From: a virus
Lineage: Duplodnaviria; Caudoviricetes
Virus record (IMG/VR): IMGVR_UViG_3300031577_000001
Span: 1 to 59,227 of that record
Length of the DNA: 59,227 nucleotides
Reading direction: 5' to 3' (one strand)
The notes beneath the pieces are model-generated. The model searched no databases. It saw only the letters and a list, made by a program, of their open reading frames with translations, and was not told where the DNA came from. Both the position numbers and the translations under genes were made by a program. Numbering within the stretch: position 1 is the first letter of the stretch; every line of letters starts with the position of its first letter. Of this stretch, positions 2,571-8,830 are shown piece by piece.

Positions 2571-3151
2571 TGGCTAAGTGTAAAAACTGCGGTAACCAAA
2601 TTCAGGGCTGGTGCGATTATTGTAATGATGATTGTTATAACGCTTATCAATATAAAAAGGTAGAAAAAGAAAATGCCGACCTACGCAAGGGACTTCAGCA
2701 GGAGCACGATAAGGTAACGAGGCTGGCAGAAAAATTACACCATGTATCAATGAATCACGGTGAATGGATGAAAGCAAACGAAAAGCAAAGGGTTACAATA
2801 GCGGCTTTGCGGTTGGCACTGGATAAATTAGCGCGATTAGGGAATGAACCGAACTATGGCAATAGTATTGGAAACGAAATAGCACAACAGGCATTATCAG
2901 ATACGACCGGAGCGGAACTACTCGATAAGATTGAAACTACAGAAATAGCATTAAAAAACCGCAATAGAATCATTGAGGAATTGCAAAAAGAATCCGTTAG
3001 GTTGGAGCAAGAGAATCAGGCGTTAAGGTGCTGCGGTAATTGCCGTTATCAAAGTCATAAGCCCCCAAAAGAGTGTATTGATTGCGGTGGTATTGATAAT
3101 GAATATGCTGGTTGGCAATTAGCAGAAAGGCTGGTGAGTAAGAGTGAGTGA
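2567..3151 (+). CDS. Coiled-coil protein with N- and C-terminal Cys clusters
   Basis: CxxC motifs; heptad pattern. Confidence 0.65.
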   Translation: MMAKCKNCGNQIQGWCDYCNDDCYNAYQYKKVEKENADLRKGLQQEHDKVTRLAEKLHHVSMNHGEWMKANEKQRVTIAALRLALDKLARLGNEPNYGNSIGNEIAQQALSDTTGAELLDKIETTEIALKNRNRIIEELQKESVRLEQENQALRCCGNCRYQSHKPPKECIDCGGIDNEYAGWQLAERLVSKSE

Positions 3152-6037: not shown

Positions 6038-6061
6038 TTGATTTTGTGGGGAGGGGTTAGC

Positions 6062-6544
6062 GTGGTTTTACAGAGAGAAACAGCGTACAAAGAGGAAAAT
6101 AGGCAAGCCGCAAAATGGCTATTGGAATACCCCGAGAGAAGACAAGCTTATATAAATAGAATGAACTCAATCCAGTATTTAGGGGCTACACAATACGATG
6201 GTATGCCTCATGGCACCGATGTTGGAAGGCCGTGTGAGGCTAAAGGGATTAGACTGGCTGACTTGGATATTGACAAGAAATGGATAATGGCAATTGAGGA
6301 TGCAGAGAGAACGCTAGGGCCGAAGAAGTTAGCATTCCTTGATATTAGGAGGCAGGCGGAAAAACAGAAAGCATCAACAGGCGGCAGGCCAGGATGGATG
6401 AATTACACCATGGAAAAGTATGCTGATTGGCAACATAGGCGTTATGGTGGGGATTATGTACCAAGCTACAATACTTTACGTGCATGGTGGGACGAAATAC
6501 TAAATGTTGCTGTAAGGATAGCTATTCGGCGCGGATGCTTATAA
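6062..6544 (+). CDS. RinA/ArpU-like late transcriptional activator
   Basis: YDGMPHGT.VG.P.E motif; last early gene before the late region. Confidence 0.7.
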   Translation: MVLQRETAYKEENRQAAKWLLEYPERRQAYINRMNSIQYLGATQYDGMPHGTDVGRPCEAKGIRLADLDIDKKWIMAIEDAERTLGPKKLAFLDIRRQAEKQKASTGGRPGWMNYTMEKYADWQHRRYGGDYVPSYNTLRAWWDEILNVAVRIAIRRGCL

Positions 6545-6554
6545 AAAATACTTT

Positions 6555-6604
6555 TTGTTTGGCACAAAGGTACGAAAAACCCTGTCATACTAAAGATAGT
6601 AAAA
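6555..6604 (+). promoter_or_regulatory. Putative activator-dependent late promoter
   Basis: Immediately after the RinA-like gene; tgtcatact -10-like element. Confidence 0.4.
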
Positions 6605-6903
6605 CTATGTCTCCGCAATGAGGATAAACTACTGCCGGAATGGTTTTAGCCAGGACAGCACATATTGCACAATAATGTGCCATAAGGCGGCGTTAGTGCT
6701 AGTTAGGCTTTAACCCTGAGGTATCAATGGGTGCCGCCGAGATTATCAGCAGCGACAATTGCGCTGACTAGATATATTGTTGTGGCGACGCCTGAAAGTC
6801 CAACAAACAGGTAGATCGCTGGTAGAATGTACAGCAGCGGCGGAATAATGGCGTAACTACCGCCGCAACGATAATAACCATGTCGCTCGCACCGGAGATA
6901 TGG
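6605..6903 (+). ncRNA. Putative ~300-nt multi-branched structured RNA of unknown family
   Basis: Closing stem 6605-6615/6893-6903 with six internal hairpins and G-U pairs; no plus-strand ORF. Confidence 0.6.
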
Positions 6904-6959
6904 TGTCATAGATTGTTCATTACTTTTTACCTCCAGGGCCTTCGGGCCTGTACATGACA

Positions 6960-6989
6960 GCCTCCTGATTCCAGGGGGCTTTTATATTT
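6960..6989 (+). terminator. Rho-independent terminator
   Basis: gcctcctg-attc-cagggggc followed by tttt. Confidence 0.7.
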
Positions 6990-7128
6990 GAGGTGATAAT
7001 TGGCCTGTTGTTTGAGACTCAGGTTTTTATTGATCCTTTTTCTTTGCCTTTTTAGGGGAGGTGGTTGCTAAAATCAACTCATGATTTGCCACATTTAATA
7101 TTGTCTAAGCTGAGAGGGGAAATGTAGA

Positions 7129-8517
7129 ATGAGTGTTTTATATGAAACATTTATGGAAGGTGCATTAATACTAGCGACTCCAACGAAAATTACTAGTGCA
7201 TCCGGGGTATTAACTTTGACATCTGCCAGCAATACTTTTATTGCATCTGGTACGGAGGATATTACTAGTATTACGGGTAATGGGCAAGGCATCTATGTGA
7301 TTATCTGGAATACTGCACGGAAATTGACTTATAATTCTTCTAAACTGTTGCTGATTGGAAAAGCAGATCGAACCACGGCAGTTGGGGATGTAGGGGTGTA
7401 TCAAGATTGCATGGGAGTTTTTACTGAACTCTTGTATCAGCCGATATCTGGCAAGGTGTCAGAAGCAGATTCCGCGACAACGGCTGATGCTTGCTCTGGC
7501 AATGCGGCGACGGCTACTAAATGGGCAACAGCCAGGACCTTGAGCTACACCGGGGATGCTACAGGCTCGATGTCGGTCGATGGTTCGGCAGAGACCAGCG
7601 CCGCTTTGACTCTTGCTTCTTCTGGCGTAACGGCCGGTACATACACCTCGGTTACGGTGGATGCGAAAGGACGGGTCACTGCCGGGACGAACCCGACAAG
7701 CGAGGCTATTAGTATAACTGGGAATGCGGCTACGGCTACGTTGGCTACTACGGCGACAACTTGTTCGGGTAATGCGGCAACCGCGACAAAGTTGGCGACG
7801 GCAAGAACTATAACTTTGGCTGGTGATGTTACAGGAAGTGGTACTTTCGATGGGTCCACGAATCTTTCTATAACAACAACCGGTGTAGAAGCGGCAAAAT
7901 TGACCACTGCTAGAACAATCTCTATAACCGGAGATGCTAGCGGCAGTGCAAGTTTTGACGGTTCGGAAAATAAAAGTTTGGAACTAACTCTCGGCAGTTC
8001 TGGTGTAACTGCAGGAACTTATAATAGTGTTACTGTAGATTCTAAGGGAAGGGTAACATCTGGAACGAATACTTCAGTTGCGAGTGTACCGACAGGTGCA
8101 GTACAAGCTTTTGCAATGTCTACTATACCGTCTGGTTGGCTGGCATGTGATGGCTCGAAAGTATCGAGAACCGATTATGCTGATCTGTATGCGCTGATAG
8201 GTACGACCTTTGGGGAAGGCGATGGCAGTACAACGTTTGCATTGCCTGCGATACAGGATAATTTTATTCTTGGATTGGGCACTACCTACGCAACGTTGGG
8301 GGCAACTGGTGGGGAAAGCACGCATACGCTGACCACTGATGAAATGCCTGCACATACTCACACTTATACGACTAAAGCGAGTGCTCAGCCTCAATCGGGG
8401 TCTGACACTGATTGTTGGTATGGTACCGCTACAGGAGCTACTGGCAGTGCTGGTAGTGGTGATGCTCACAACAACATGCCGCCTTATATCGTGCTTAAAT
8501 ATTGCATCAAATATTAA
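7129..8517 (+). CDS. Tail-fibre-like protein with GNAATATKLATARTI repeats and C-terminal tail-collar domain
   Basis: Fibre repeats; P.GWL.CDG..VSR..YA.L...IGT and HNNMPPY collar motifs. Confidence 0.85.
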   Translation: MSVLYETFMEGALILATPTKITSASGVLTLTSASNTFIASGTEDITSITGNGQGIYVIIWNTARKLTYNSSKLLLIGKADRTTAVGDVGVYQDCMGVFTELLYQPISGKVSEADSATTADACSGNAATATKWATARTLSYTGDATGSMSVDGSAETSAALTLASSGVTAGTYTSVTVDAKGRVTAGTNPTSEAISITGNAATATLATTATTCSGNAATATKLATARTITLAGDVTGSGTFDGSTNLSITTTGVEAAKLTTARTISITGDASGSASFDGSENKSLELTLGSSGVTAGTYNSVTVDSKGRVTSGTNTSVASVPTGAVQAFAMSTIPSGWLACDGSKVSRTDYADLYALIGTTFGEGDGSTTFALPAIQDNFILGLGTTYATLGATGGESTHTLTTDEMPAHTHTYTTKASAQPQSGSDTDCWYGTATGATGSAGSGDAHNNMPPYIVLKYCIKY

Positions 8518-8528
8518 GATCAATAAAC

Positions 8529-8577
8529 TAGCCAAAGCAAAGAGAGCCGGATTATTCGGCTCTCTTTGCTTTGGCTA
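8529..8577. terminator. 21-bp perfect inverted repeat (probable terminator)
   Basis: tagccaaagcaaagagagccg / cggctctctttgctttggcta. Confidence 0.7.
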
Positions 8578-8641
8578 TTAACTTTGAATATAACAGCATG
8601 ACTGTTTAAATATATTTATATATACCAAGGAGGCGAGAGCC

Positions 8642-8830
8642 ATGCCAATAGTTAACTGTAGTAAAACCGATTGCCTAAACCACGGCAAAGATGTCTGCAC
8701 GGCTAATAGAATAAAACTGTTTAAAGGTAAATGCGACGGCTATATTACCAGCGCTGGTGGCATGAAACTTGTTGCCCCTCCGATGGAACGAAGGCATGGC
8801 AGCTTGCAGAATATGAGAACTAAACCATAA
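8642..8830 (+). CDS. Small Cys protein (DUF1540-like)
   Basis: VNC...DC..H....C.A..I......C pattern; AGGAGG RBS. Confidence 0.6.
   Translation: MPIVNCSKTDCLNHGKDVCTANRIKLFKGKCDGYITSAGGMKLVAPPMERRHGSLQNMRTKP

What the first reader, a model, noticed from the sequence alone, without database searches (positions are those of the whole stretch)
6605..6903. Large multi-branched non-coding RNA at the start of the late transcript
Seen: an 11-bp closing helix (6605-6615 with 6893-6903, 2 G-U), extendable via gaggata/tgtcgctc. It encloses hairpins at 6658-6680, 6686-6738, 6746-6767, 6777-6806, 6818-6835 and 6837-6866. The G-U pairs favour the plus strand. It follows the RinA-like gene and precedes a terminator at 6960. 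I could not match it to tRNA, tmRNA, 6S, SRP, RNase P or a group I core. Established: Firmicute prophages carry large structured RNAs of unclear function (ROOL, GOLLD). Inference: a possibly new ~300-nt phage RNA class.
Basis: partly seen in the sequence, partly recalled or inferred. Interest (0 to 1): 0.75.

Follow-up and report, generated by a model that had tools for sequence, protein, structure and literature searches.

The report
Conserved RNA insert in phage late leader
The flagged stretch is not one large closed RNA but the start of a roughly 390-base leader of the phage's late genes, and this leader carries an extra insert whose 130-base non-coding core recurs in one unrelated prophage and matches no known RNA family.

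Summary
The minimum-energy fold reproduces the closing helix, and the plus strand folds better than shuffles (z -2.5 to -2.9, against -0.6 for the minus strand).

The closing helix itself is at chance level: a 12-bp helix appears in 32% of shuffles. It is also not conserved.

Comparison with relatives shows that the region is composite:
- An extended -10-like motif lies at 6583-6591.
- An insert of about 270 nt (about 6600-6870) is missing from the closest relative, L001.
- A leader tail (6871-7007), including an intrinsic terminator at 6959-6980, is shared with L001.

Only 6612-6742 has a homologue. It is 74% identical (99 of 134 columns) to a stretch in the late leader of a prophage in genome G036. 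The neighbouring protein there is only 36% identical.

The indels between the two copies break every reading frame. Rfam 15 gives no match. The antisense 61-aa ORF has no real relatives.

With two copies, covariation cannot be established (2 compensatory pairs of 24).

Best reading: an accessory non-coding RNA module carried in a terminated late-leader transcript, resembling lambda 6S and StxS in layout only. Its function is unknown. A ROOL/GOLLD-like 300-nt class is not supported. The scan had not seen this core on other DNA.

The parts
6038..6544 (+). 168-aa gene X, a candidate late regulator directly upstream of the leader
   Evidence: ORF. 30 homologues, mostly from Negativicutes-type sources. 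No Pfam or PHROG family. AF2 model has pLDDT 82. The C-terminal helix-turn-helix resembles sigma region 4 only weakly, Z 5.4-5.7.
6583..6591 (+). Extended -10-like motif, the putative late promoter; predicted start near 6598
   Evidence: A motif of the same form lies 27-49 nt after the stop in 14 of 15 gene-X loci (sequences). This is a consensus match only; no transcript data exist.
6598..6990 (+). Predicted late-leader transcript, promoter to terminator, about 390 nt
   Evidence: Fold energy -131.9 kcal/mol, z -2.91, 0 of 100 shuffles as good. The end points are inferred.
6600..6870 (+). Insert relative to the closest relative, L001
   Evidence: nhmmer and blastn align only window 6871-7007 to L001 3556-3692, which begins about 60 nt after L001's gene X. 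The promoter regions align up to about 6599 (by eye).
6612..6742 (+). Conserved non-coding core, the only part with a homologue
   Evidence: Matches G036:C8:7483-7611 (L014 1501-1629, also L038): blastn E 9e-13, 99 of 134 columns identical, model R1 159 and 156 bits. Indels are 1+2 and 2+1+2 nt, so conserved blocks fall in different frames. Alifold against column shuffles gives z -3.2.
6686..6738 (+). Main helix of the core: 7 bp, GC-rich, enclosing a small hairpin
   Evidence: Kept in both copies, with one G-U to A-U change.
6743..6880 (+). 3' half of the insert: hairpin 6744-6774 plus a long irregular stem 6775-6873; no homologue found
   Evidence: z -3.44 on the plus strand and -1.70 on the minus strand. 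No significant match in 401 class genomes, the phage collection or the plasmid collection. Not a diverged copy of the core: local alignment p about 0.1.
6871..7007 (+). Resident leader tail shared with L001: hairpin, CCUCC tract, UUCG hairpin, terminator and remnant ribosome-binding site
   Evidence: 71% identity to L001 3556-3685. Sequences.
6959..6980 (+). Intrinsic terminator of the leader
   Evidence: 9-bp stem followed by a T run. A terminator-like hairpin at the equivalent place occurs in 13 of 15 gene-X loci, with differing stem sequences.
6604..6615 (+).
   Evidence: Present but at chance level, and it overlaps the core's own 5' helix.
6724..6909 (-). Antisense 61-aa ORF, rejected as a gene
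   Evidence: Among 1.84 billion representative proteins there is only one hit, a repeated short stretch in a 1033-aa protein. No Pfam match. The equivalent frame in L001 stops after 12 codons (read).

Best explanation
The flagged region is the 5' two-thirds of a roughly 390-nt leader of the late operon. The leader runs from a promoter-like extended -10 at 6583-6591 to an intrinsic terminator at 6959-6980.

Phages of this group have gene X, then a promoter, a short leader, a terminator and the first late gene. That is the layout of lambda Q, PR' and tR'. In this phage the leader holds an extra insert of about 270 nt.

The functional part of the insert is most likely the 130-nt core at 6612-6742. 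I read it as an accessory non-coding RNA module, transcribed on the plus strand and released mainly as part of the short terminated leader RNA. It would then act as an RNA in its own right, most likely in trans as a protein-binding or regulatory RNA. This is the way the terminated PR' transcript of Stx phages became the sRNA StxS.

Shown here: the insert, the conservation of the core, its non-coding nature, and the conserved promoter-plus-terminator layout.

Inferred, not shown: transcription, the transcript ends, action in trans, and any target.
For: - **Absent from relatives.** The core is missing from the leaders of 13 related loci and from 9 related virus records and genome G001 searched whole with model R1. 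It is therefore accessory.
- **Recurs in a distant prophage.** The copy in G036 is 99 of 134 columns identical, while the gene X proteins are 36% identical. The two phages share only three other short DNA matches.
- **Same placement.** In both phages it lies on the late-gene strand between the promoter-like motif after gene X and an intrinsic terminator. In G036 the terminator starts about 10 nt after the core.
- **Non-coding.** Indels between conserved blocks are not multiples of three.
- **Conserved fold.** Pairwise consensus folding beats column shuffles: z -3.2, 0 of 300 shuffles as low.
- **Conserved layout.** The promoter motif occurs in 14 of 15 loci and the terminator in 13 of 15. Leaders range from about 30 to 740 nt, and the two longest are the two that hold the core.
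- **Precedent.** The abstract of PMC7547250 states that the terminated PR' transcript becomes the regulatory sRNA StxS.
Against: - Only two copies are known, so covariation is not established: 2 compensatory pairs, 1 one-sided change and 21 invariant pairs of 24.
- The alifold signal is as strong on the minus strand: z -3.1, 2 of 300 shuffles.
- The core alone is not unusually stable: z -1.19 and -0.83.
- There are no expression data.
- The promoter is a consensus match only. The tool's standard sigma-70 scan found no more sites than in shuffles.
- The core sits about 14 nt from the predicted start here, but about 580 nt from it in G036.
- 74% identity could reflect a moderately old exchange without selection.
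- Nothing tested here separates action in trans from action in cis.
Confidence: 0.45

Rival explanations
1. A cis-acting leader element. The core, or the whole insert, changes the fate of the late transcript that carries it. It could help RNA polymerase read through the leader terminator and the cassette hairpin at 8530-8576, as HK022 put RNA or EAR do. Alternatively it could stabilise the 5' end of the late mRNA.
For: Both copies lie in the leader, upstream of a terminator and in the sense orientation. Both phages also carry cargo with a further terminator-like hairpin between the leader and the first conserved late gene: window 8530-8576, and L014 about 2974-3078 (alignment).
Against: - 13 related leaders lack the core yet keep the terminator. 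Several are only about 30-50 nt long, so read-through in this phage group does not need it.
- I saw no alternative pairing between the core and the terminator stems (by eye).
- Here the core lies 220 nt from the terminator.
- No Rfam antitermination RNA matched.
Confidence: 0.2
2. A neutral mosaic remnant. The insert is DNA left by recombination between phage leaders and has no function of its own. The predicted folds are incidental.
For: - The region between the late regulator and the first late gene is clearly a hot spot for insertions: the tail-collar cassette here and three small ORFs in G036.
- The 3' half has no homologue anywhere searched.
- Runs of identity in the core are no longer than expected at 79% identity (my estimate).
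Against: - The rest of the two genomes has lost DNA similarity: 4 blastn matches in 52 kb, the core being one of them.
- The consensus fold beats shuffles.
- The whole leader has z -2.9.
- Phage genomes are generally thought to shed useless DNA (general knowledge).
Confidence: 0.2
3. One reading: one closed, multi-branched RNA of about 300 nt (6605-6903) that represents a new large phage RNA class of the ROOL/GOLLD kind.
For: The minimum-energy folds use the closing helix and enclose all the hairpins. There is a plus-strand bias. There is no Rfam match.
Against: - The closing helix is at chance level.
- Its 3' arm belongs to leader sequence shared with L001, which lacks the insert.
- The only homologue keeps just 130 nt and ends in a terminator straight after.
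- It is far smaller and far rarer than ROOL or GOLLD (their sizes are recalled, not from a call).
Confidence: 0.1
4. A DNA-level site, such as a packaging, recombination or regulator-binding site, or a small gene on either strand.
For: The GC-rich inverted repeat 6686-6692/6732-6738 is symmetrical. The alifold signal is equal on both strands.
Against: - No frame is conserved.
- The antisense ORF has no relatives.
- The terminase genes lie 3 kb away here and 6 kb away in G036.
- There are no other copies in the window and no host copy in G036.
Confidence: 0.05

Closest known systems
Lambda 6S RNA and StxS (the short PR'-tR' transcript of lambdoid and Stx phages; PMC7547250, abstract and introduction seen)
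   Same: A late regulator gene is followed at once by a promoter, a short leader and an intrinsic terminator placed before the late genes. The short terminated RNA can take on a function of its own. The same region is a hot spot for cargo.
   Different: There is no sequence or structural relation. The hosts are Negativicutes, not enterobacteria. Gene X has no established likeness to Q: the one Q-complex chain listed scored Z 5.3 at rmsd 8.9, which I do not count as a match. The conserved RNA here is an added module found in 2 of 15 leaders, not the leader itself. Neither transcription nor Hfq binding was tested.
Processive antitermination RNAs (HK022 put, Bacillus EAR; properties recalled, not from a call)
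   Same: Structured RNAs of about 70-130 nt in a leader upstream of terminators, acting on the polymerase that makes them.
   Different: No Rfam match. Relatives manage without the core. No function was tested.
ROOL and GOLLD large ornate RNAs (named in the abstract of PMC12286853, search listing)
   Same: Phage- or prophage-borne non-coding RNAs of unknown function. In G036 the core lies near a tRNA-like element. That GOLLD and ROOL often lie near tRNAs is recalled, not from a call.
   Different: No match to any Rfam 15 model. Only about 130 nt is conserved, against several hundred (recalled). Two copies are known, against many.
Candidate structured RNAs of IMG/VR (PMC10690425; passages seen)
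   Same: The same kind of object: conserved intergenic motifs in uncultivated phage contigs, some upstream of packaging genes.
   Different: With two copies in IMG/VR-type data it would probably not have passed a covariation filter (my inference).

Membership tests
Any Rfam 15 family (including tRNA, tmRNA, 6S, SRP, RNase P, group I/II introns, GOLLD, ROOL, HEARO, riboswitches) | Score at or above the family's gathering threshold | tested here: not met
   0 matches in the whole window. For 6400-7200 at E up to 10 there were only two terminator-driven rows, 17 and 12 bits against cut-offs of 50 and 37. ARAGORN found 0 genes.
Terminated late-leader RNA of the lambda 6S / StxS type | An intrinsic terminator between the late promoter and the first late gene, conserved among relatives | tested here: met
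   Terminator-like hairpin in 13 of 15 gene-X loci, with stems that differ in sequence. Window 6959-6980.
Terminated late-leader RNA of the lambda 6S / StxS type | A promoter directly downstream of the late regulator gene | tested here: inconclusive
   An extended -10-like motif 27-49 nt after the stop in 14 of 15 loci. This is a consensus match only; the standard sigma-70 scan was not enriched.
Terminated late-leader RNA of the lambda 6S / StxS type | A discrete short transcript ending at the terminator, and antitermination by the upstream gene product | not testable with these tools
   No RNA run was listed. Gene X has no family.
Structured non-coding RNA (general) | Compensatory base changes that support the helices | tested here: inconclusive
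   Two sequences only: 2 of 24 pairs compensatory, 1 one-sided, 21 invariant. The shuffle control is uninformative, 118 of 500. Alifold against column shuffles gives z -3.2 on the plus strand and -3.1 on the minus strand.
Small protein gene (antisense 61 aa, or the 31-aa plus-strand ORF) | A reading frame and protein sequence conserved in homologues | tested here: not met
   One repeat-type hit among 1.84 billion representatives. Conserved nucleotide blocks are read in different frames in the two copies.
Miniature mobile element (MITE-like) | Several copies per genome or across genomes | tested here: not met
   No second copy in the window. One true match in 401 class genomes. The 13-bp inverted ends at 6775-6787/6861-6873 are within what chance gives: a 12-bp helix occurs in 32% of shuffles.

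The most novel reading that the evidence does not exclude
The core is the founding member of a new family of phage RNAs that ride in the terminated late-leader transcript. The phage group would control its late genes by a Q-like antitermination system built on an uncharacterised protein, gene X. The RNA would be made whenever the late promoter fires and would act in trans on a host or phage target. Its company in G036, an RtcB ligase gene and a tRNA-like element, hints at RNA repair or a decoy against RNA-targeting defence.
Probability: 0.25. Interest if true: 0.6.

Novelty: new variant of a known kind. Interest (0 to 1): 0.35.

Why it matters
If the core is a working RNA, late-leader transcripts outside the lambdoid phages would also serve as carriers for accessory non-coding RNAs. 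That would give a concrete, testable case in Negativicutes phages, which are almost unstudied.

The surrounding layout may matter more. Gene X, a promoter, a short leader and a terminator recur in 13 to 14 of 15 loci. This points to a late-gene antitermination switch based on a protein with no known family.

As it stands the RNA rests on two copies and no expression data, so it is a lead and not a discovery.

Tried and rejected
**Searches for more homologues, all negative apart from G036 (also held as L038)**
- blastn against the phage collection (in one search only the tRNA-like part of L014 matched tRNAs) and against plasmids.
- blastn against 401 class genomes: 1 true match. 18 other genomes gave short matches at E 1.8e-4 to 0.01. 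The 6 I inspected lie in a conserved 535-aa gene; the other 12 were not inspected.
- blastn against the 40 genomes of G001's order: 0 matches.
- Model R1 on G036's family and order, 2 genomes each.
- Model R1 on 151 class genomes. The one extra hit lies inside an ABC permease ORF.
- Model R1 on 13 related loci, and on 9 virus records plus G001 searched whole.
- Six pattern scans:
  - viral: 8 stretches, 7 by chance;
  - viral: 6 stretches, 5 by chance;
  - viral: only L038;
  - viral: 3 stretches, 2 by chance inside a membrane-protein ORF;
  - viral: 4 stretches, 3 by chance (L061 and L062 at 8-12 bits, L060 below the listing limit);
  - metagenome: 5 stretches, all unrelated GC-rich DNA.

**Other negative or uninformative results**
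- A protein-based search with gene X alone in viral contigs found nothing. The alignment-based searches gave L001-L013.
- Sequencing runs: no RNA holder was listed. One DNA run held 8% of the words, and its contigs cover only 6992-7141 and 7178-7328. This says nothing about expression.
- Foldseek of the gene X model against the PDB found nothing at E up to 0.001. The profile search against PDB sequences found nothing useful.
- A pseudoknot between 6640-6649 and 6706-6715 was considered. The changes seen in G036 break pairs as often as they make them (by eye), so I dropped it.
- The idea that the 3' half is a diverged second copy of the core was rejected (p about 0.1).
- The direct repeats at the insert borders (73-80% over 15-26 nt) are too weak to call a target-site duplication.
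- I recalled a boxA-like word and an RNase-P-like word and judged them chance. No Rfam support.
- The supplementary tables of PMC10690425 could not be opened, so I cannot say whether this motif is already catalogued there.
- Literature searches turned up no description of this element. That covers only those three searches.

Full report
**What is at the coordinates.** The window is a virus record of about 59 kb. Relatives of its proteins come from Negativicutes-type sources. 6545-7128 is a gap between a 168-aa ORF (6038-6544, here 'gene X') and a tail-collar ORF (7129-8517). The minimum-energy fold of 6590-6920 uses the closing helix and encloses the inner hairpins, and so does the fold of 6598-6990.

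**Is the fold more than chance?** The plus strand folds better than dinucleotide shuffles: z -2.51 (1 of 100 as good) for 6590-6920, and z -2.91 (0 of 100) for 6598-6990. The minus strand gives z -0.61. The signal is uneven: the 3' half, 6743-6880, has z -3.44, while 6612-6742 has z -1.19. The closing helix is unremarkable. Among 300 shuffles of 6560-6990, a helix of at least 12 bp appeared in 32% and of at least 11 bp in 58%.

**Known families.** Rfam 15 gave no match at gathering thresholds in the whole window. In permissive mode on 6400-7200 it gave only two weak terminator-driven rows. ARAGORN found nothing. The antisense 61-aa ORF has no Pfam match. Its only hit among 1.84 billion representative proteins is a repeated short stretch in a 1033-aa protein. 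In L001 the same frame stops after 12 codons (read). I reject that ORF as a gene.

**The region is composite.** Gene X has 30 homologues. An alignment of them (A1) brought in 11 viral and 2 genomic loci. Only L001 shares DNA with the gap, and only window 6871-7007, aligned to L001 3556-3692. In L001 that stretch begins about 60 nt after gene X. The promoter-proximal sequences of the two phages align up to about 6599 (by eye). This phage therefore carries an insert of about 270 nt (about 6600-6870) in a leader that is otherwise like L001's.

**The one homologue.** A blastn search of 401 genomes of the class found one significant match, G036:C8:7483-7609, E 9e-13. The same sequence is in IMG/VR as L038. 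Aligned over 134 columns, 99 are identical, 27 differ and 8 are gaps. The gaps come as 1+2 nt and 2+1+2 nt between conserved blocks, so the same conserved nucleotides are read in different frames in the two copies. The element is therefore non-coding on both strands. The gene X proteins next to the two copies are 36% identical. The two phages share only three other short blastn matches across 52 kb. The conserved core is window 6612-6742. The 3' half of the insert has no homologue anywhere I searched and is not a diverged copy of the core.

**Structure of the core.** With two sequences the structure cannot be settled. The consensus fold has the following parts:
- a 5' helix;
- a small hairpin with one compensatory change;
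- a 7-bp GC-rich helix (6686-6692/6732-6738) with one G-U to A-U change;
- a small inner hairpin.

Of 24 consensus pairs, 2 change on both sides, 1 changes on one side and 21 never vary. The shuffle control is uninformative. The consensus energy beats column-shuffled alignments on the plus strand (z -3.2, 0 of 300) and equally on the minus strand (z -3.1, 2 of 300). The large hairpin that the single-sequence fold draws at 6658-6680 is not kept in G036 (by eye).

**Context.** In 15 gene-X loci (the window and L001-L014; L009 and L010 have identical leaders) the following recur (sequences):
- an extended -10-like motif 27-49 nt after the stop, in 14 of 15;
- an intrinsic-terminator-like hairpin before the first downstream gene, in 13 of 15;
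- stems that differ in sequence but hold their place.

In several loci the terminator abuts the ribosome-binding site of the first late gene. Late transcripts must therefore pass through it. This is the logic of lambda Q, PR' and tR'. The abstract and introduction of PMC7547250 describe that logic, and also how the terminated PR' RNA became the sRNA StxS.

Leaders run from about 30 to about 740 nt. The two longest, this window (about 390 nt) and G036 (about 740 nt), are the two that hold the core. In G036 the leader also holds a tRNA-like element: Rfam tRNA scores 31.9 bits against a cut-off of 29, and ARAGORN is silent. An RtcB gene lies just upstream. The core there is followed within about 10 nt by a terminator.

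Gene X has no Pfam or PHROG family. Its AF2 model (pLDDT 82) has no Foldseek match. It resembles sigma region 4 and other helix-turn-helix domains only weakly, Z 5.4-5.7. 'RinA-like' is therefore a guess from position.

**Reading.** The core is accessory. It is absent from 13 related leaders and from 9 related virus records and G001 searched whole. It is non-coding and keeps the same strand and the same functional place in two very distant phages. I take it to be a non-coding RNA module carried in the terminated late-leader transcript, favouring action in trans by analogy with StxS (confidence 0.45). The rivals are:
- a cis effect on read-through or stability (0.2), weakened because relatives with leaders of 30-50 nt do without the core;
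- a neutral mosaic remnant (0.2);
- a DNA site or small gene (0.05).

**Novelty and limits.**
- No Rfam family fits.
- Three literature searches found no description of the element.
- The IMG/VR catalogue of candidate RNAs (PMC10690425, passages) could not be checked, because supplements are closed.
More copies may exist there.
- No RNA run was available.

The finding is a real but thinly supported conserved non-coding element. The larger claim of a new large RNA class is not supported.

Noticed in passing
window 6545-6990; L001-L014 downstream of the gene X homologues: A conserved layout of gene X, an extended -10-like motif, a short leader, an intrinsic terminator and the first late gene. 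The motif occurs in 14 of 15 loci and the terminator in 13 of 15. The layout resembles lambda Q/PR'/tR', with an uncharacterised 168-aa helical protein in the place of Q. This may be a new late-gene antitermination system in Negativicutes phages.
   Followed up: partly
window 6990-8640: The ribosome-binding site of the L001-type first late gene survives at about 6990-7003, but its start codon is gone. The tail-collar gene 7129-8517 and a 20-bp hairpin at 8530-8576 sit between it and the small Cys-rich gene 8642-8830, which has a new ribosome-binding site. The fibre gene looks like a cassette inserted exactly at the start of the first late gene.
   Followed up: partly
L014 1122-1186 (G036:C8 about 7104-7168) and L055 5174-6337: A tRNA-like element with an odd anticodon loop (Rfam tRNA 31.9 bits; ARAGORN finds no tRNA) lies in the roughly 740-nt non-coding late leader of the G036 prophage. 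It sits just downstream of a 387-aa RtcB-type RNA ligase gene (named from its sequence motifs, not from a family search) and gene X.
   Followed up: no
L014 360-500 (G036 prophage gene X start): The G036 gene X homologue seems to lack a normal start. An ATG opens a short frame that stops after 7 codons, and the homologous frame continues out of phase. This may be a frameshift, a sequencing error or an unusual start.
   Followed up: no
window 6904-6958: The resident leader tail shared with L001 holds a CCUCC tract and a C(UUCG)G hairpin just upstream of the terminator. The CCUCC tract could pair with the ribosome-binding site of the first late gene.
   Followed up: no
L004 3495-3545 and L007 423-470: Two other gene-X leaders begin with a shared hairpin-forming stretch that contains the word GGAATGG, also found in the core. 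This is probably chance; I did not test it.
   Followed up: no
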